IMG/VR virus record: IMGVR_UViG_2778261171_000002
Source: a virus
Taxonomy: Duplodnaviria > Heunggongvirae > Uroviricota > Caudoviricetes
Strand: one strand, 5' to 3'
DNA length: 18,784 bases
The notes under the pieces are model-generated. The model ran no database searches. It saw nothing but the letters and a program-made list of their open reading frames with translations, and was not told the origin of the DNA. The position numbers and the translations under genes were made by a program. Below are positions 1 to 18,784 of the stretch, piece by piece. The first letter of the stretch is position 1. Each line of letters starts with the position of its first letter.

Positions 1-24
1 AACACAACCCGCTACGGGGGAGAC

Positions 25-357
25 TTACCCGAAATCTGATTTATTCAACAAAGCCACTTCCCCGTCAACACAGACTTTCAGCTCACCATATGTCGGGTGG
101 ACAAGCGTGCCGGGACCGGGTTTATTCAGCGCTTCAATCAGGCGATCGCGCTGGTCAAAGCAGTCATCTCCCACCACATAAGCTGTGATGGACGGGCGGA
201 AAGTGACTTTTCCCAGATCTTCGGTATAGGGCTTGTCGCGGTTCGGGTATTCATGTGTTTCCACACGGCGACCGGTTCCCGCACTTTCTTCTTCAACCTT
301 AAACGGCACACCTCGAAATGACGCATCCTGAAGCCTGTCTTTCCACGTCATATACAC
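25..357 (-). CDS. Mu gpN-like DNA circulation protein, N-terminal domain only (110 aa; possibly truncated)
   Basis: N-terminus MxxTWKDRLQDASFRGVPFKVE resembles the DNA-circulation N-terminal domain of Mu-like tails; in-frame stop at 25-27 although family members are usually 400-500 aa; track start is GTG, ATG two codons downstream. Confidence 0.45.
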   Translation of the reverse strand: MYMTWKDRLQDASFRGVPFKVEEESAGTGRRVETHEYPNRDKPYTEDLGKVTFRPSITAYVVGDDCFDQRDRLIEALNKPGPGTLVHPTYGELKVCVDGEVALLNKSDFG

Positions 358-372
358 TCCGAAAATAAAAAA

Positions 373-392
373 GCCACCTATTAGAAGGTGGC
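373..392 (-). terminator. Rho-independent terminator downstream of the AT-rich moron
   Basis: Minus-strand hairpin GCCACCT-loop-AGGTGGC followed by TTTTTTATTTT, directly after the stop of the 413..943 ORF. Confidence 0.5.
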
Positions 393-412
393 CTTGTAAT
401 GAATTTTATTAA

Positions 413-943
413 TTAGCGAGTCAGAAACAACGAATCTTTATACTTTTGCTGTTGTTCATTTAAATACTTAGCTGTTTCATCGCTGGCAAATGGAAATATT
501 ACCGTATTTTTAGGCATGGTAATTTCTTTTTTGTCCAGCGTCAGAGTAAACATAGGAACATACTGAGCAGAGTAACGCACCGCAGAAACGAGCTCTAGTT
601 TAGACTCTTCAATAACACTTAAATTATCCAGGCTAACTTTCTCTTCATCTTTTTTCTTTGACGCATTTAAAGTTTTTATTACTTTATTTAATTTCTCCTG
701 AAAATCCTCCTTAAAGTTTTCAGGATTGCCGTCGACAACAAGAATCTGTTCACCCTGATTATCTGGAAAAATAATCTTTGCACTTATCAATTTATTTTCT
801 TTATAAACATCACCAAGTTTTATGGCTCCTCCAGATAACTGAATAATATGTTCATCTTTAAAGGAGATGTTGCCAGAGATTATGAGAGATGAAAAAATAG
901 CCGCTGCTCCAAGAATTACACTTGCTGTGATATAGCCTTTCAT
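413..943 (-). CDS. Hypothetical membrane-anchored or secreted protein (176 aa) in an AT-rich moron
   Basis: ATG start; hydrophobic N-terminal segment (ITASVILGAAAIFSSLIISG) then a K/E/D/N-rich domain; local GC far below the flanking tail genes; own terminator. Confidence 0.65.
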   Translation of the reverse strand: MKGYITASVILGAAAIFSSLIISGNISFKDEHIIQLSGGAIKLGDVYKENKLISAKIIFPDNQGEQILVVDGNPENFKEDFQEKLNKVIKTLNASKKKDEEKVSLDNLSVIEESKLELVSAVRYSAQYVPMFTLTLDKKEITMPKNTVIFPFASDETAKYLNEQQQKYKDSLFLTR

Positions 944-1034
944 TTTTCGCCTATTAACATTTTTCTAAATGTGCATTAATTCTATCACTCTATTTATGAC
1001 TTACAACCAGCAATACATGTGAGGGGAATCCTGG

Positions 1035-2867
1035 CTACCAAAATCGGGTATAGCCAACATCGTGATTTATATCAATGCCACTGGAGCGTGTTTCCGTAAC
1101 CCGCATACCTGGTGGCATATTTATAAATGATACCTTGATCTCACCATCAACTTTTGGCGCGGTAGCTTTATTAATCATGAAGGGATTCGAGCCTGTGGCA
1201 TCGGAGGCGTTGTTTGCCTGAGCCGGATCCACCGCCGGATAAGGAGTGTATCCCCGTGCCGGTATTCCCGTCCCATAAGCATCATAAGCACCCGCGCCCC
1301 ACTGCGCAGAGTTAATGGCATCGACCGTGTCACCGGAACTGTCGGTAAACCACTCAATAATTGGCTTCAGCTTGTCCCACATATCCTGAAACCACTTAAC
1401 AACCGGCCCCCAGTTATTGATCACCATCCCCATCGGCGACCAGGCAAAAACTTTCTTAAGGAGTTCCCAGCCAGCCTCAAAATAAGGACCAATGGTTTCC
1501 CAGAGCTTCTTGAAATAAGGTCCGACAACATCCCAGTTAGTGATAATTAATCCCGCAGCCAGGGCTATCGCCGTCGCAATCATGCCAATCGGCGTCATCG
1601 ACATGATCCTGCTGACAATGCTGATGGCACTGCCCACGCCCATCAATCCCAGTTTCAGAATCGCAAGACCGGCAGCAAGCCCGACGACGCCGCGAATAAC
1701 CCGGGGATTTTCATCCGCAAACTTCGTGAATTTTTCCCCCAACTCCCCCAGCCATTGCGTGATATTTTTAGCGTCACCAGAAAATGCGCCGCCAATAGCC
1801 GCAAGGCCGTTAGTTGCGGTCCCTGTCATTGCCTCCCACAGGTTGGACAGCGTACCAAGCTGTGCCTGAACACGTTTATTCAGGCTGGCCTGTTTATTCA
1901 TCTTCTGCTGGATCTGATCGTAGCCATCCTTTCCTTTATCGATTAGTGCATTGACCACCTGAAGGGTTTCGGCATCATCACCAAATATTGCCTTAAGTAC
2001 ACCGGTTCGCTTAACGTCGGTCAGTTTTCGCAGCTTTGCCAGTTGCCCGAACATGTTATCAAGACCGCCAAAACTCCCTTTGCCATCAGTAAAATCGAGC
2101 TGTACCCCGAGTTTCTGGCGGGCCATGATTTTATTGACGTCCCTGATTTTCTTAACGCTTAATCCGGACTGGATAACTTTTCGCAGGGCATTACCTGCCG
2201 ACTCCCCGTTCATCCCCATCTGATCCATCATGACACTGATGGGGGCAAGACTCTGTGCAGCCTGAAGACCGTCCTTATTCACCATCTTCAGAACAGAGCT
2301 GGTTTTAGTGAAGAATGACAGCATGTTGGTGTCGTCAACGCCCAGATAAAACGCCTTCTGAATTGTGTCGAACAGCCCCATCATGTCTTCTGAGGCCGTT
2401 CCGGTAGCATCCTGCATCTTTGCGGCAAACTCGGCAGCCGCTTCCGGTGTTTTTTTCAGTTGTACCGCAAGATAAGCTGTCGCTTTACCCACACCACCCA
2501 GAATGTTTTCTGCCGGGATCCCCTGACGCACCAGCATCTGCATCATGTTCTGGAAATCAGCCGTTGTACCGGGTAGCTGGTTACCCAGGCCAATAGCCAG
2601 TTTATTGATGTCCTGAAAGCTCTTTCCAACCTCGCCGTTCGCATCCATCATGGCGACTTTCAGCCCGGTAGCGGCGTTTTCCTGATCGGCATAAGATTTC
2701 AGGGAAAGCGTCAGCCCCGCTGCCAATCCGCCACCAAGCGCCAGCCCACCCTGTGACGCCTCTTCCGCCTGGCGTTTAAATCCCCGGATTTTCTTTTGCA
2801 TTTTCGACAGCGCGGGAGAAAGCCTGTCGACACCGGTGATCAACGCCTTAAGCTCAAATTCAGCCAT
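1035..2867 (-). CDS. Tail tape measure protein (610 aa)
   Basis: Located directly after tube and chaperone genes; long Ala/Gly/Leu/Gln-rich protein with a central hydrophobic segment typical of tape measure proteins; ATG start. Confidence 0.8.
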   Translation of the reverse strand: MAEFELKALITGVDRLSPALSKMQKKIRGFKRQAEEASQGGLALGGGLAAGLTLSLKSYADQENAATGLKVAMMDANGEVGKSFQDINKLAIGLGNQLPGTTADFQNMMQMLVRQGIPAENILGGVGKATAYLAVQLKKTPEAAAEFAAKMQDATGTASEDMMGLFDTIQKAFYLGVDDTNMLSFFTKTSSVLKMVNKDGLQAAQSLAPISVMMDQMGMNGESAGNALRKVIQSGLSVKKIRDVNKIMARQKLGVQLDFTDGKGSFGGLDNMFGQLAKLRKLTDVKRTGVLKAIFGDDAETLQVVNALIDKGKDGYDQIQQKMNKQASLNKRVQAQLGTLSNLWEAMTGTATNGLAAIGGAFSGDAKNITQWLGELGEKFTKFADENPRVIRGVVGLAAGLAILKLGLMGVGSAISIVSRIMSMTPIGMIATAIALAAGLIITNWDVVGPYFKKLWETIGPYFEAGWELLKKVFAWSPMGMVINNWGPVVKWFQDMWDKLKPIIEWFTDSSGDTVDAINSAQWGAGAYDAYGTGIPARGYTPYPAVDPAQANNASDATGSNPFMINKATAPKVDGEIKVSFINMPPGMRVTETRSSGIDINHDVGYTRFW

Positions 2868-3027
2868 GTGTGCGTTTCTCCTGCTCTATCCTGTTTGCCT
2901 GACTGACCAGCAAGGGAATTTCACTGATCGGCATATTCAGCAATTCGAAGGGATTAATGCGCCAGTAGCTGGCGCAGTCAAAGAAGCGATCAGTGAGGTA
3001 TTCAGCCGTCAGGCCTGGAGGAAAAAA
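2860..3027 (-). CDS. Frameshift extension of the tail chaperone (E'/GT-like), reached by -1 slippage at T_TTT_TTC
   Basis: Slippery heptamer TTTTTTC at minus-strand 3027..3021, just before the chaperone stop; the -1 frame stays open (FFPPGLTAEYL...) to a stop at 2860-2862 beside the tape measure ATG. Confidence 0.55.
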   Translation of the reverse strand, partial: FFPPGLTAEYLTDRFFDCASYWRINPFELLNMPISEIPLLVSQANRIEQEKRTHG

Positions 3028-3278
3028 CCAGCCACAAGCCACGCCGCTGCATTCAGGTCTGCCGGAGACATCTGGTCGACAGAGCTTTGCGGCACTTTCG
3101 CCAGCCGCACAATGTATTTCGACACCACATGCGCCAGAAGTCTGACGGACTCATCCTGATTCATCTGGTAGGGATACCCCAGCTCGCGGACATCCTTCCC
3201 GGTGGGTTCATCAAACTCCAGTACGGAGAGTGTCTCACCATGAGCGATAATCGGTTTCTTTAACTCAAGCTCTTTCAT
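3009..3278 (-). CDS. Tail assembly chaperone (P2 gpE / lambda G analogue, 89 aa)
   Basis: Small ORF between tube and tape measure genes; overlapped at its 3' end by a -1 frame ORF that runs up to the tape measure start. Confidence 0.7.
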   Translation of the reverse strand: MKELELKKPIIAHGETLSVLEFDEPTGKDVRELGYPYQMNQDESVRLLAHVVSKYIVRLAKVPQSSVDQMSPADLNAAAWLVAGFFLQA

Positions 3279-3634
3279 TACTGGTAATCCCCTTCTTCAC
3301 CGTGGAACTCAAGATCAACCGTGCCTTCTTCGGCATTATGGTTCGCTTCTCCGTGCAGCCAGGCGGACGACAATACATAGACCTGACCGTTCGCCAGCTC
3401 GGCAGTGATGGTCATCTCATCAGACGAGGTGATTTTGCTCACCGGAAAATTCTTCGGCACCTTGAAGGTCCCTTTGACATAAGGCGCACGGTGAGTTTCC
3501 TTGCGGTCCACTGAACCGTCCAGGCCGATGATGTCATCATTGACCGTCCTGTTCATGGGCACCTCAATGCCGCCGGTCAGCGATAGCTGCTGACCGTCAA
3601 TTTTGAAATAACAGGTTCCCCCGATACGGGCCAT
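3278..3634 (-). CDS. Tail tube protein (Mu gpM-like, 118 aa)
   Basis: Small acidic protein directly after the sheath gene with start/stop overlap; order sheath-tube-chaperone-tape measure. Confidence 0.8.
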   Translation of the reverse strand: MARIGGTCYFKIDGQQLSLTGGIEVPMNRTVNDDIIGLDGSVDRKETHRAPYVKGTFKVPKNFPVSKITSSDEMTITAELANGQVYVLSSAWLHGEANHNAEEGTVDLEFHGEEGDYQ

Positions 3635-5130
3635 TATGCAGACTCCTCTGAATACTGAAGACGGAACTGGTTAACCACGGCAAAGACACGCAACTGGTTA
3701 ACATAGTCAGGCGGGAACAGCGTGTTCAGGCGGTTCGGATCGCTGGCATCACGCTCCACAACCAGGTACTGCTTAAACAGTTCGTAGTTTTCCACGATCC
3801 CCGCACGCTCAAGCTGACGGTAGGTTGCCAGCAGTTCCCCTTTGATCACCGCCGGGGTGACAATCGCCTGACCGGGACCAAAGCGGGTACCGTCACTGGC
3901 AAGCTTGTGACGCCCGTACTTACTGGTAATGACGGATTTCAGTTTGCGCAGTACATACGCGCTGGTATGCAGTGTCTCACTGTCGAGGTAGCTGTTATCC
4001 GCAACCCCGTAAGCGTTTTTCCTGTACGTGGTGACATCACGCTGAATGCGCAGTACCCCGCTTTCGACATACGCCGTTGCCACGCCATGAGACAGCAGGG
4101 TCTGTTGTTCGGTCATCGTGAACCGTTTCCCCTTCGGCGCAGGCAGCATACCCACCAGCTCACCGGTCTGCGTGGGACGTGCCGGATCGTTGCGGATAAA
4201 CACCGCTGCGCGGGCGGTACGGCTTGCCGCAAGTTCGTCGGCAGGCGTCTGGGTCTCTTTTTCGTACCCTGCCAGGGTAATGTGCTGCTGGTTAAACTGG
4301 TCACCTGCGGTCACCAGTTCTGACAGCGTGCCGATCTTTGCCGTATACACATGACCATACAGCTGACGCGCATAGCTCCAGCGACCGCTGGTATCGTTCA
4401 TCTCGGTCACCAGCGTGTTAACGGAGGCCGTGTCGTTGAACGGCAGGCCGATATAATCAAACGGCTCATCCGCCATTGCAGCCACCGCGCCGGTGAGAAC
4501 CGGAGCACCCGTTCCGGCGGTACCCGTCGCCACGGCAATCTGTACGCCCGCTGGCAGCACTTCGCCCCCACCAAAGCCGTAGTAATTGAGGCTGACAGGA
4601 ATTTCATTCCCGCAAAGCCCCTTATGACGCGCGGTAAGTGTGACCACGCCTGCCGAAGATGAAGCCGTAAACGGCAGGGCCGGAACGGCATTGATGGCAT
4701 CTTTGATACTGCTGGCAATCGTCGTGACGTTATCGCCGTTGGTCACCGGAGCCTGCACGCGGGTACGTCCCACATAGACATTCACCGTGCCGCTTTCGGT
4801 TGCTTCCCCGGTCACCGCCAGCGTAACCGTTGCCGCCGCGCCTGTGGCTTCCGGAACGGCAATCACATACAGCTCACCAAACGGGTCTGTCTGGCGATAA
4901 GCCTCGACCATACGCGCCAGCTGACTTCCCGCACCACAAATCTGGCGTGCATAGTCTGCCGACGGCATCAGCACCAGACTGTTGGCAACAATCTCTGCAC
5001 CGTTATTGGCATGACCAATCAGCAGCGATGCTCCGCTGTCCTGTGCAGTATTCGCAGCCTGGTTATCCATTTCCGCATAAAACAGCGGAACCAGCGTATT
5101 CGACGGAATGGTGTTAAAGCTTATCGTCAT
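3634..5130 (-). CDS. Contractile tail sheath protein (Mu gpL-like, 498 aa)
   Basis: About 500 aa protein at the expected position upstream of tube; ATG start. Confidence 0.85.
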   Translation of the reverse strand: MTISFNTIPSNTLVPLFYAEMDNQAANTAQDSGASLLIGHANNGAEIVANSLVLMPSADYARQICGAGSQLARMVEAYRQTDPFGELYVIAVPEATGAAATVTLAVTGEATESGTVNVYVGRTRVQAPVTNGDNVTTIASSIKDAINAVPALPFTASSSAGVVTLTARHKGLCGNEIPVSLNYYGFGGGEVLPAGVQIAVATGTAGTGAPVLTGAVAAMADEPFDYIGLPFNDTASVNTLVTEMNDTSGRWSYARQLYGHVYTAKIGTLSELVTAGDQFNQQHITLAGYEKETQTPADELAASRTARAAVFIRNDPARPTQTGELVGMLPAPKGKRFTMTEQQTLLSHGVATAYVESGVLRIQRDVTTYRKNAYGVADNSYLDSETLHTSAYVLRKLKSVITSKYGRHKLASDGTRFGPGQAIVTPAVIKGELLATYRQLERAGIVENYELFKQYLVVERDASDPNRLNTLFPPDYVNQLRVFAVVNQFRLQYSEESA

Positions 5131-5284
5131 TGGTGTTCACCTTTTTATTCACGCGCCGGATATCACCCGCTGCTTCACGGCGCAGCCAGTAGTTGTTCTC
5201 GTCAACATTTCGCCCTTCGGCGGGCAAAAGGTCGCCGCGGGCAGGGTCAGGCACTGACCGCCCTTTAACAGGTTTGACAAACAT
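5114..5284 (-). CDS. Small hypothetical protein (56 aa) immediately upstream of the sheath gene
   Basis: ATG with a GAGGA Shine-Dalgarno 8 nt upstream; ORF ends overlapping the sheath start; below the size cutoff of the supplied ORF track. Confidence 0.35.
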   Translation of the reverse strand: MFVKPVKGRSVPDPARGDLLPAEGRNVDENNYWLRREAAGDIRRVNKKVNTNDDKL

Positions 5285-5292
5285 GAGGATCC

Positions 5293-5853
5293 TCAGGAAG
5301 GAAGGGTTATTTCGGTGTGATGTTCGATATCGCCGTCAGGCCCGTTACCGGGCTCGAGATAATCAACATCAATCGCCAGCGTTTGCAGTTCACCCAGACT
5401 GTTCAGATCATCCTGCTGGCGGGTATCGTCTTCAGTCAGCTCGCTGATGACCGAAAAATCGAACTGATAAATCAGCTCATGACGATTCAGATCCAGCAGC
5501 GTGCCGCCGTCATAGGTAATCGGGTTACCGCACGCTTCCGGGTTCCAGCCCAGCAGGGCCTTAAAGAGCATTTGCCGGACATCGTCCACCACATCATACG
5601 AGGAAAACTGACCGCGCTCATCACGCCCGTTACTCAGTATGACAACCACGGAGAAGCCCTCTTTCAGCTCCTGCCAGTAGTCGGTCTGGCTTTTGTTTTC
5701 TCCCGGAGAGTCATCACCCGGTACCACATACGCCGCCGGGAGTCTCAGCTTTCCGACCTCCGGCAGATTTTTGAACTGTGCCGCGCCTGCCACCCGGTTT
5801 TCAAAATACGGGCAGCGGGCACGCAGCGCAGCAATAACAGGCGTCAGTTTCAT
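5293..5853 (-). CDS. Mu gp37-like tail-associated protein (186 aa), possible tail terminator or sheath stabiliser
   Basis: Position between connector genes and sheath; acidic protein; ATG start. Confidence 0.45.
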   Translation of the reverse strand: MKLTPVIAALRARCPYFENRVAGAAQFKNLPEVGKLRLPAAYVVPGDDSPGENKSQTDYWQELKEGFSVVVILSNGRDERGQFSSYDVVDDVRQMLFKALLGWNPEACGNPITYDGGTLLDLNRHELIYQFDFSVISELTEDDTRQQDDLNSLGELQTLAIDVDYLEPGNGPDGDIEHHTEITLPS

Positions 5854-6356
5854 CTGTGTCGTCGCTCCGGCTTCAGTGATTTACGCAATTCCCGCGCCAG
5901 AAAATAGCGTGTCCAGCTGCGGTTCTTTTCAAGCGTTTCCACCATGAAGTTATTACGTGGAGCCAGTCGCCAGCCGCTGCCACCGGATGCACCACGATGA
6001 TGACTACGACGACGTTTTGCTCCTCCCCGGACACCAAAAAACAGAAACGCCGGATAGAAGTCACCAGAGATCATCCGGTTCCCCTTCCCGTTGCGCTGGT
6101 TAGGGGCAATGCGTGTCATAAAACCGGCTCGCTTTTTACTGGCTCTCGGCACCATATAACCAATCGAACGAGCCAGGCGTCCGGTCTGATAACCGGGGTT
6201 TTCACCCGGTGCCGACCGCGCACGGCGCATCACCAGCCGACGGGCATCACGCATATGACGCTGCCCAATCGTGACAAACGCCCGCCGGACACGGGCGCGG
6301 TTAAAGCGCATCTCGGCGGGCTGCTGAACATCAACGTGAAAAAAGGGAGTCGCCAT
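5850..6356 (-). CDS. HK97 gp10-like neck/tail completion protein (168 aa)
   Basis: Arg-rich protein in the head-tail connector block; 4-nt overlap with the next gene. Confidence 0.5.
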   Translation of the reverse strand: MATPFFHVDVQQPAEMRFNRARVRRAFVTIGQRHMRDARRLVMRRARSAPGENPGYQTGRLARSIGYMVPRASKKRAGFMTRIAPNQRNGKGNRMISGDFYPAFLFFGVRGGAKRRRSHHRGASGGSGWRLAPRNNFMVETLEKNRSWTRYFLARELRKSLKPERRHR

Positions 6357-12946: not shown

Positions 12947-13297
12947 TCACTTCAACCGTTCACGGGCCGTCTTCGCCTTATGACACGGCCAGCACAGACT
13001 CTGCAGATTACAGTCGGCATCAGTGCCGCCATGCGCTTTAGGGATGATGTGGTCAACGGTTTTCGCCTCACGTACCACACCACCACGCAGACATAACTGA
13101 CACAGGCCTTTGTCACGCTTCAGTACACGTTCACGGATAGCATCCCATTTCGAACCGTAGCCGCGCTGATGACGGGACTGGCCTGGCTTGTATTGCCTCC
13201 AGCCTTCGCTTTTGTGGCTTTCGCAGTAGCCTGACGGGTCTGTGGTGGTATGGCGGCAGCCACGAACACGGCAGGCTTTTGGGATTCGTGATGGCAT
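12947..13297 (-). CDS. HNH endonuclease (116 aa from ATG at 13297; the track ORF extends to a TTG at 13396)
   Basis: Cys-rich zinc-finger-like N-terminus, HNH core DHIIPKAHGG...N...LCWPCH; GGAG Shine-Dalgarno before the ATG; sits next to the terminase as in HK97-type cos phages. Confidence 0.85.
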   Translation of the reverse strand: MPSRIPKACRVRGCRHTTTDPSGYCESHKSEGWRQYKPGQSRHQRGYGSKWDAIRERVLKRDKGLCQLCLRGGVVREAKTVDHIIPKAHGGTDADCNLQSLCWPCHKAKTARERLK

Positions 13298-13417
13298 ATG
13301 TACTCCAATGAAGAAGCCACCGACATAGCCTCCTCCATTCATCGTGAAACTATTTTCATCTACCCAGTAATGAATTCTTTGTAGAGTTGTGATCAATACA
13401 ACTCACTAATGGAGAGG

Positions 13418-13642: not shown

Positions 13643-13822
13643 TCCCCGCTTTATCCAAATTGCATTGCCAGAATGCCGACAACAGACTGACATTCAAATC
13701 CTGACTACCTCCAATAGTCTGACCGTACACCTATATAGTTTTAATTTTCATCAATCCATTTAACTATCGTTTAATTGTTGTCACATAGGATTCTGCCGTT
13801 TTTAACAATGCAGGATAATAAG

Positions 13823-14116
13823 ATGAAAAAAATGTTGTTTTCTGCCGCTCTGGCAATGCTTATTACAGGATGTGCTCAACAGACGTTTACTGTTGGAAAC
13901 AAACCGACAGCAGTAACACCAAAGGAAACCATCACCCATCATTTCTTCGTTTCGGGAATTGGACAGGAGAAAACTGTTGATGCAGCCAAAATTTGTGGCG
14001 GCGCAGAAAATGTGGTTAAAACAGAAACCCAGCAAACATTCGTAAATGGATTGCTCGGTTTTATTACTTTAGGCATTTATACTCCGCTGGAAGCGCGGGT
14101 GTATTGCTCACAATAA
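13823..14116 (+). CDS. bor: Bor lipoprotein (97 aa; the track ORF starts upstream at 13775)
   Basis: MKKMLFSAALAMLITGCAQQTF with lipobox LITGC; near-identical in memory to lambda Bor; opposite strand to the lysis genes as in lambda. Confidence 0.9.
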   Translation: MKKMLFSAALAMLITGCAQQTFTVGNKPTAVTPKETITHHFFVSGIGQEKTVDAAKICGGAENVVKTETQQTFVNGLLGFITLGIYTPLEARVYCSQ

Positions 14117-17970: not shown

Positions 17971-18726
17971 TTAATCGTACGAGTCGAGTATGTTCTGAAA
18001 CGCCCAGCCATCCTCCTTAGGAACACAAGACAGAATCGAATGAATTAGATCCCCTGCGGAAAGAAGTAACCCTTCTTGCCCTTCAAGAAAATAACGCCAT
18101 TTAGGTCCATGAAACAGATTGTTCCGTAACCGGAAACAAACGAACAAGCACACTGCAAGCTGAGTCTCAGGCTCGGTTGTCATAGCTTGCATGGCTGAAA
18201 AACAGTCATCTCTCGCCTTTTGAGAGGTGTGGTGTAATTCCCCGCATAGGCTTTCAAACTTGCTTTTATCATTTACATAGCGTTCTGAAAAAAAATCGTA
18301 TGTACACTTGAGAACCCCCAGATCCACAACCTCCATTTGCAAAAGACGATTGGCATATTTCGCACTTTTGCCTTGCCCCCCAGCGCAATTAAGAAGTAGA
18401 GACTCGAAGAAAGAGAAGTACAAAAAATAACGATTAACGGCGGTAAGGATAGATGGGGTAATCCTGCCTTCTGCATTAATCAACTCGTCAAATTCTGATG
18501 AAAAATCCAACTGTTCATCCTTTTCCATTATATTCGGCCATTTATTGATATTGCACATCAGTCGCTCTTGGCAATGACAGGTTTGCTCTCGGTAATGTCT
18601 CAAACGCCCCAAAAAGTAGTCTCGCAAATGCTCTAGGGAAGGTGCGAATAAGCAGGTCATTTCTTCCCAAGCTGACTCGCTGATTAAAATTTCGCGGATC
18701 TGGGCCGATTTTTTTCCCGCAAACAC
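17971..18726 (-). CDS. Orphan hypothetical protein (251 aa from GTG; 229 aa if the first ATG is used) with a C-terminal Rx4H (HEPN-like) motif
   Basis: Long ORF in a lower-GC segment upstream of the nin genes; RNNLFH encoded at 18109..18126; Cys/His-rich N-terminus. Confidence 0.65.
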   Translation of the reverse strand: MFAGKKSAQIREILISESAWEEMTCLFAPSLEHLRDYFLGRLRHYREQTCHCQERLMCNINKWPNIMEKDEQLDFSSEFDELINAEGRITPSILTAVNRYFLYFSFFESLLLNCAGGQGKSAKYANRLLQMEVVDLGVLKCTYDFFSERYVNDKSKFESLCGELHHTSQKARDDCFSAMQAMTTEPETQLAVCLFVCFRLRNNLFHGPKWRYFLEGQEGLLLSAGDLIHSILSCVPKEDGWAFQNILDSYD

Positions 18727-18784
18727 ATCGAATCAGCCTATTTAGGCTATTTTTTCCACCATTTCTGGCGTTATTTCCGGTTTT

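What the first reader, a model, noticed from the sequence alone, without database searches (positions are those of the whole stretch)
25..357. DNA-circulation-like gene stops after 110 codons: possible truncation or decay at the left edge
Seen in sequence: the ORF resembles only the N-terminal domain of Mu gpN-type DNA circulation proteins and has an in-frame TAA at 25-27. Established knowledge: these proteins are normally 400-500 aa and are followed by baseplate genes. Inference: either the tail module is truncated here (a defective prophage or a deletion junction) or this phage encodes the domain separately. Only 24 nt of sequence remain beyond the stop, so I cannot tell which.
Basis: partly seen in the sequence, partly recalled or inferred. 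Interest (0 to 1): 0.35.

Follow-up and report, generated by a model that had tools for sequence, protein, structure and literature searches.

The report
Phage tail gene cut by IS903B
The short "DNA-circulation" gene is an ordinary 442-codon phage tail gene cut after codon 99 by the insertion sequence IS903B, which supplies its last nine codons and its stop, and the sequence ends there only because a draft assembly broke at this repeated element.

Summary
A minus-strand ORF at 25..357 (110 codons from GTG, 108 from the ATG at 351) carries a complete Pfam DNA_circ_N domain and ends at a TAA at 25-27.

The cause is mundane. Window bases 1..55 are the terminal 55 nt of IS903B (IS5 family, 1057 bp, multi-copy in E. 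coli). The phage sequence starts exactly at base 56. The protein is identical to intact 442-aa homologues through residue 99. It then reads ALLNKSDFG-stop from the IS end.

Intact relatives keep one unsplit gene followed by the baseplate genes. These include E. coli prophages at up to 99.8% identity and the Shigella phages SfV, SfI and SfII at about 97%. So this is not a naturally separate domain.

The window is a complete 18,784-bp contig of draft assembly GCA_002230215.1. Its other end stops inside a second insertion sequence, ISKpn26. The edge is therefore an assembly break at a repeat, not evidence that the tail module is missing.

I could not settle whether the other 343 codons and the baseplate genes lie beyond the IS (simple insertion, which I favour) or were deleted. 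Either way the tube-initiator gene is inactivated and the prophage probably cannot build tails. This is ordinary and of low interest.

The parts
1..55 (.). Terminal 55 nt of IS903B (IS5 family). The 18-bp terminal inverted repeat GGCTTTGTTGAATAAATC, read on the minus strand, lies at 38..55. The rest of the IS lies beyond the contig end.
   Evidence: The 55 nt are identical to the IS903B end at L003 4001..4055, next to an annotated IS903B transposase. The stretch occurs at 4762 places in 1365 E. coli genomes, on chromosomes and plasmids. All prophage homologues align only from base 56 onwards.
56..64 (.). Predicted 9-bp target site (ACTTCCCCG). It would be duplicated on the far side of the IS if this is a simple insertion.
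   Evidence: The breakpoint is fixed at 55|56: window 56 onwards equals L001 8001 onwards with no mismatch until base 1030, while window 55 (C) differs from L001 8000 (A). The 9-bp duplication for IS903 is taken from PMC9282650. The second copy was not observed.
25..357 (-). Chimeric ORF. Bases 56..351/357 are the first 98 codons plus 2 nt of the Mu-N/gp43-type tube-initiator ('DNA circularization') gene. Bases 25..55 are the IS903B end, which completes codon 99 (GTG, still Val) and adds ALLNKSDFG and TAA.
370..395 (-). Terminator-like hairpin just upstream of the truncated gene's ribosome-binding site. It belongs to the AT-rich inserted gene at 413..943.
413..943 (-). A 176-aa AT-rich ORF of unknown function (a moron) between the tape-measure gene and the truncated gene. 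It is present in intact E. coli relatives and absent from SfV.
1035..2867 (-). Tail tape-measure gene (610 aa), the normal upstream neighbour of the tube-initiator gene.
   Evidence: Pfam PhageMin_Tail, E=1.7e-26. Gene order matches L001 and SfV.
18637..18784 (.). First 148 nt of ISKpn26 (IS5 family) at the opposite contig end. This shows that both edges of the window are assembly breaks in repeated insertion sequences.

Best explanation
An SfV-like (Mu-tail, HK97-head) prophage of E. coli or Shigella carries a copy of IS903B inside its tail tube-initiator gene, the gene annotated as 'DNA circularization protein' (Mu N/gp43 type). The IS junction falls after the second base of codon 99. Translation therefore runs 31 nt into the IS end, adds nine foreign residues (ALLNKSDFG) and stops at a TAA within the IS. 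The result is a 108-aa product that keeps only the N-terminal tube-like domain. The window stops 55 nt into the IS because it is a whole contig of a short-read draft assembly that broke at this multi-copy repeat, as it did at ISKpn26 on the other end. Shown: the IS identity, the exact breakpoint, the chimeric tail of the ORF, the unsplit gene in relatives, and the contig status. Inferred: (a) this is a simple transposition with a 9-bp duplication, and the remaining 343 codons and the baseplate genes lie on another contig (about 0.7 given the junction); (b) the prophage can no longer assemble tails, because in Mu the missing helix-rich/LysM domain of gp43 binds the baseplate wedges.
For:: all 171 long prophage matches in 5426 complete E. 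coli genomes begin at query base 56; bases 1-60 hit 4762 places in 1365 genomes, lying next to annotated IS903B transposase genes; window 1..55 is identical to the last 55 nt of a 1057-bp IS903B with 18-bp terminal repeats; window 56..1029 is identical to the intact PEC414 prophage, and position 55 mismatches; the protein is identical through residue 99 and then diverges; intact homologues are 442 and 447 aa and are followed by baseplate genes; about 97% DNA identity to the functional phages SfII, SfI and SfV; the window is the whole contig NLON01000080.1 of GCA_002230215.1; the right end is ISKpn26. (PMC11915804): Mu gp43 is the hexameric tube initiator, with an N-terminal tube-like domain and a C-terminal helix-rich/LysM domain that contacts the wedges. 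(PMC9282650): IS903 is 1057 bp and makes 9-bp target duplications.
Against: Only one IS end, 55 nt, is visible. The other junction, the target duplication and the rest of the gene were not found. Exact look-ups of 15 predicted IS-fusion C-terminal proteins failed. The junction is absent from complete E. coli genomes, GTDB representatives, IMG/VR and JGI metagenomes. These negatives are weak, because the look-up needs a residue-perfect guess and the assembly is not in those DNA collections. Loss of tail assembly is inferred from Mu, not tested.
Confidence: 0.9

Rival explanations
1. The same IS903B junction, but not a simple insertion. An IS903-mediated adjacent deletion, or recombination between two IS903B copies, removed or relocated the 3' 1.0 kb of the gene together with some or all of the baseplate and fibre module. 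In that case the tail module really does end here.
For: The predicted partner fusion protein was not found in 15 exact look-ups. An IS903B copy in another genome (L003) lacks matching 9-bp flanks and sits between two truncated genes, so such rearrangements do occur. The same contig carries a second IS at its other end, which points to an IS-active strain.
Against: Nothing positive supports it. The failed look-ups require a residue-perfect guess of a 364-aa sequence. From general knowledge, most IS junctions at draft-contig ends are simple insertions. The rest of the late region in the window is intact, with ORF lengths equal to those in PEC414.
Confidence: 0.2
2. The phage naturally encodes the N-terminal tube-like domain as a separate small protein. 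This is the first reader's second option, resembling the P2 GpU-like stand-alone proteins.
For: Stand-alone proteins of this fold exist: PHROG 16855, 'GpU-like tail protein' (profile length 158), matches the ORF. PMC11915804 notes that many simple myophages have tube initiators made of the barrel alone. The break falls 6 residues after the end of the Pfam domain.
Against: The stop and the last 9 codons are IS903B sequence. The closest relatives, with no mismatch until window base 1030, continue in frame to 442 aa. SfV, SfI and SfII have the unsplit gene.
Confidence: 0.01
3. The 55 nt of IS sequence were attached by misassembly or a chimeric read, and the gene is intact in the real genome.
For: The contig comes from a short-read draft assembly and ends in repeats on both sides.
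Against: A de Bruijn contig needs reads that span the junction. The exact 108-aa chimeric protein is on record on 3 contigs in 2 samples. The join is exactly at the terminal base of the IS, as expected for transposition and not for a random chimera.
Confidence: 0.03

Closest known systems
Phage Mu N / gp43 (DNA circularization protein, tail tube initiator), Pfam PF07157 DNA_circ_N, PHROG 184
   Same: The N-terminal domain matches the Pfam model end to end. The gene sits after the tape-measure gene. Intact homologues are followed by Mu P/gp45-48-like baseplate genes.
   Different: Only the first 99 residues remain. The helix-rich/LysM C-terminal domain, which in Mu contacts the wedges (PMC11915804), is missing from this ORF.
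SfV orf15 'tail/DNA circulation protein' and its equivalents in Shigella phages SfI, SfII and SfIV
   Same: About 97% DNA identity across the tail region 56..6000 and the same gene order.
   Different: SfV orf15 is an unsplit 447 aa. SfV lacks the 176-aa AT-rich ORF between the tape-measure gene and orf15. SfV has no IS.
IS903 / IS903B (IS5 family) insertions that disrupt genes
   Same: The visible 55 nt are identical to the IS903B end, including the 18-bp terminal repeat. The join is at the terminal base. The element is multi-copy on chromosomes and plasmids.
   Different: Only one end is visible. The transposase gene, the second end and the 9-bp duplication lie outside the contig.
E. coli K-12 e14 and other decayed prophages of this lineage (from my own knowledge of e14 gene names)
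   Same: Intact relatives carry ymfQ, ymfR and pinE, names shared with e14. This is another example of decay in a prophage tail module.
   Different: From memory, e14 lost its head and tail genes by deletion. Here the visible lesion is an IS junction, and the head and tail-shaft genes in the window are intact.

Membership tests
Mu N/gp43-type DNA circularization / tube-initiator protein | N-terminal DNA_circ_N (tube-like) domain | tested here: met
   Pfam PF07157, E=3.9e-35, model positions 2-88 of 88. PHROG 184, E=1.2e-55.
Mu N/gp43-type DNA circularization / tube-initiator protein | Full length of about 430-490 aa with the C-terminal helix-rich domain | tested here: not met
   The ORF covers only positions 2-102 of 411 of PHROG 184, and the intact homologue covers 3-408. 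The sequence diverges into IS903B after residue 99. It is a truncated allele of a family member, not a functional member.
Mu N/gp43-type DNA circularization / tube-initiator protein | Gene order: tape measure, then N, then hub (P), gp45, gp46, gp47, gp48 | tested here: inconclusive
   The upstream half is met, with the tape-measure gene at 1035..2867 and a moron in between. The downstream half lies beyond the contig end. It is present in PEC414 and SfV.
IS903B (IS5 family) | Terminal sequence with the 18-bp inverted repeat GGCTTTGTTGAATAAATC | tested here: met
   Window 1..55 is identical to the end of a 1057-bp IS903B copy in L003, and both ends of that copy carry the 18-bp repeat.
IS903B (IS5 family) | Adjacent DDE transposase gene | not testable with these tools
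   It lies outside the contig. In other genomes the same 55 nt directly follow an annotated IS903B transposase gene.
IS903B (IS5 family) | 9-bp target-site duplication | not testable with these tools
   This needs the other junction. The predicted duplication is ACTTCCCCG, and the 9-bp rule comes from PMC9282650. Searches for the predicted junction found nothing.
IS903B (IS5 family) | Multi-copy, mobile distribution | tested here: met
   4762 places in 1365 of 5426 genomes, up to 46 per genome, with 1226 of them on plasmids.
SfV-like temperate myophages | Collinear late region with high DNA identity to SfV, SfI and SfII | tested here: met
   97.1-97.5% identity over 89% of window 56..6000 in 8 phage records. 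Gene order is as in SfV. Head, terminase and lysis genes are as expected.

The most novel reading that the evidence does not exclude
The 108-aa remnant (tube-like domain plus a 9-residue IS-encoded tail) is still expressed from the tail operon. It acts on its own, for example as a dominant-negative cap that poisons tail-tube initiation of co-resident or superinfecting SfV-like phages. That would make an IS-generated truncation a selected anti-phage function rather than decay.
Probability: 0.02. Interest if true: 0.35.

Novelty: already known. Interest (0 to 1): 0.07.

Why it matters
It matters little beyond correct annotation. The ORF should be labelled as a pseudogene fragment disrupted by IS903B, not as a small DNA-circulation protein. 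The prophage should be scored as probably tail-defective. The case also makes a practical point for scans of draft assemblies. An ORF that stops a few dozen bases from a contig end should first be checked against insertion-sequence termini, because contigs break at repeated IS copies and the IS end can supply an in-frame stop.

Tried and rejected
1. I looked for the same junction elsewhere so as to read leftwards. It was absent from 5426 complete E. coli genomes, GTDB representative genomes, IMG/VR and JGI metagenomes.

2. I searched for the predicted far-side junction, GACCCGAACTTCCCCG+GGCTTTGTTGAATAAATC. There were no hits in IMG/VR or GTDB representatives.

3. I modelled a simple insertion. 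The IS903B left end is open in the gene's frame and would give a fusion ORF, MRDLILQLSKSSIYSTKP+GEVRVSTSK.... Exact look-ups of 15 versions built on different C-terminal variants were all negative. This is not decisive, because one wrong residue defeats the look-up.

4. I ran a homology search with the C-terminal 346 aa. The short hits (P0015, P0031, P0032, P0034, P0036, P0040) are contig-end partials or internal-start calls. None carries IS-derived residues.

5. I looked up the protein's contigs. This returned the window's own contig, which identified the window as a whole draft contig but gave no leftward sequence.

6. A literature search for the assembly accession found nothing.

7. The Rfam scan of the window gave no hits.

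8. I considered and rejected a natural split gene and a misassembly (see the rival explanations).

Full report
**Observation**

On the minus strand an ORF runs from 357 (GTG) or 351 (ATG, the start used by RefSeq for homologues) down to a TAA at 27..25, leaving 24 nt beyond it.
- It matches Pfam DNA_circ_N end to end: E=3.9e-35, model positions 2-88 of 88, residues 9-95.
- It covers only positions 2-102 of the 411-position PHROG 184, whereas an intact homologue covers 3-408.

**What lies at the left edge**

Megablast of window 1..3000 against 5426 complete E. coli genomes gave 171 long prophage matches. The listed matches all start at query base 56, never earlier.

Bases 1..60 searched alone hit 4762 places in 1365 genomes, up to 46 per genome, and 1226 of the places are on plasmids. 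In the two loci I inspected, the hit lies directly after an annotated IS903B (IS5-like) transposase gene.

In locus L003 the element is 1057 bp, with GGCTTTGTTGAATAAATC at both ends in inverted orientation. Window 1..55 is identical to its last 55 nt.

From base 56 the window is identical, with no mismatch until base 1030, to the intact prophage of E. coli PEC414 (L001 8001 onwards). Base 55 (C) differs from L001 8000 (A). The breakpoint is therefore exactly 55|56, at the terminal base of the IS.

**Consequence for the ORF**

- The protein equals the intact 442-aa protein through residue 99 (ATG numbering).
- Codon 99 is GT from the phage plus G from the IS, and still encodes Val.
- The IS end then encodes ALLNKSDFG and the TAA.
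- The break falls six residues after the end of the Pfam domain, which is why the remnant looks like a clean single domain.

**What the intact gene is**

In PEC414 the gene encodes 442 aa and is followed by baseplate genes: a baseplate assembly protein, a gpV-like protein, a GP46-family protein, baseplate J, YmfQ and the fibre genes.

The tail region is about 97% identical to the functional Shigella phages SfII, SfI and SfV. In SfV the gene is orf15, 447 aa, annotated 'tail/DNA circulation protein, similar to Mu N'. It is followed by orf16-20, which resemble Mu P, gp45, gp46, gp47 and gp48.

The cryo-EM study of Mu (PMC11915804) shows what gp43/N does.
- It is the hexameric tail-tube initiator.
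- Its N-terminal tube-like domain forms a beta-barrel ring.
- Its C-terminal helix-rich domain contains a LysM module and makes extensive contacts with the baseplate wedges.

The remnant here keeps the first domain and lacks the second. By inference, tail assembly should fail.

**Why the sequence stops**

The exact 108-aa chimeric protein is on record on contig NLON01000080.1 of assembly GCA_002230215.1. That contig is 18,784 bp, so the window is a whole draft contig.

Its right end (18637..18784) is the first 148 nt of ISKpn26, another multi-copy IS5-family element. It is inserted 12 nt inside a 225-aa hypothetical early gene.

Both edges are thus assembly breaks in repeats. The 55-nt overhang is what a k=55 de Bruijn assembly would leave, though that is my inference. 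The edge itself says nothing about whether the tail module continues.

**Simple insertion or deletion?**

IS903 makes 9-bp target duplications (PMC9282650). The predicted duplication is ACTTCCCCG (window 56..64).

In a modelled simple insertion, the IS left end is open in the gene's frame. It would yield a fusion ORF, MRDLILQLSKSSIYSTKP-GEVRVSTSK....

I could not find the far side:
- There was no hit for either junction in complete E. coli genomes, GTDB representatives, IMG/VR or JGI metagenomes.
- Fifteen exact look-ups of predicted fusion proteins were negative.
- The short C-terminal hits of a homology search are contig-end partials without IS residues.

These negatives are weak. The assembly is not in the DNA collections, and the look-up needs a perfect 364-residue guess. 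I favour simple insertion (about 0.7) on general grounds. An IS-associated deletion or rearrangement remains open (about 0.2).

**Comparison and novelty**

This is a truncated allele of a well-known gene in a well-known phage group, disrupted by a well-known insertion sequence and seen through a draft-assembly contig end.

Stand-alone tube-like proteins do exist elsewhere (PHROG 16855, GpU-like; barrel-only initiators in Pam3, XM1 and E217), but not here.

Nothing is new in kind, and interest is low. The practical lesson is to check contig-end stops against IS termini.

**Seen in passing**

- **AT-rich ORF at 413..943.** This 176-aa ORF has 30-37% GC against about 52% around it. It has its own promoter-like site and terminator hairpin, and it sits between the tape-measure and tube-initiator genes. 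It matches PHROG 5485 (unknown function) and has no Pfam or PADLOC hit. It is absent from SfV, which fits a classic moron.
- **Bor lipoprotein gene at 13775..14116.** It lies on the opposite strand beside the lysis genes.
- **HNH endonuclease gene.** It lies next to the terminase genes.
- **RNA families.** There are no Rfam families in the window.

Noticed in passing
window 413..943 (-), with hairpin 370..395 and promoter-like site 979..1006: A 176-aa AT-rich ORF (30-37% GC against about 52% around it) sits between the tape-measure and tube-initiator genes. It has a hydrophobic N-terminus, its own promoter-like site and a terminator hairpin. It matches PHROG 5485 (unknown function) and has no Pfam or PADLOC hit. 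It is present in intact E. coli relatives and absent from SfV, so it looks like a moron. Its terminator sits just upstream of the tube-initiator start.
   Followed up: partly
window 18637..18784: The right contig end is the first 148 nt of ISKpn26 (IS5 family), 100% identical to many copies. It is inserted 12 nt downstream of the start codon of a 225-aa hypothetical early gene. The listed ORF 17971..18726 therefore starts inside the IS. This is a second IS lesion in the same prophage.
   Followed up: yes
window 13775..14116 (+): A Bor lipoprotein gene (Pfam Lambda_Bor, E=1e-30) lies on the strand opposite to the late genes, next to the Rz, lysis and holin genes. It is the usual lambdoid serum-resistance moron.
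   Followed up: partly
window 12947..13396 (-): An HNH endonuclease gene lies immediately upstream of the small and large terminase genes. This is the arrangement typical of HK97-like cos packaging modules.
   Followed up: no
L003 2999..4055 (E. coli TUM14664): This IS903B copy has no matching 9-bp flanks and lies between two truncated genes (an aldose-1-epimerase fragment and a hypothetical fragment). It is an example of an IS903B-associated deletion or rearrangement in a genome with at least 40 matches to the IS903B end.
   Followed up: no
one search hits P0001-P0004, P0019, P0028-P0030, P0035, P0042: Several database proteins fuse the C-terminal part of this protein to unrelated phage domains such as tape measure, sheath, tail terminator, portal, terminase or HTH_36. 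Most are on a single contig each and probably reflect frameshifts, rearrangements or misassemblies.
   Followed up: no
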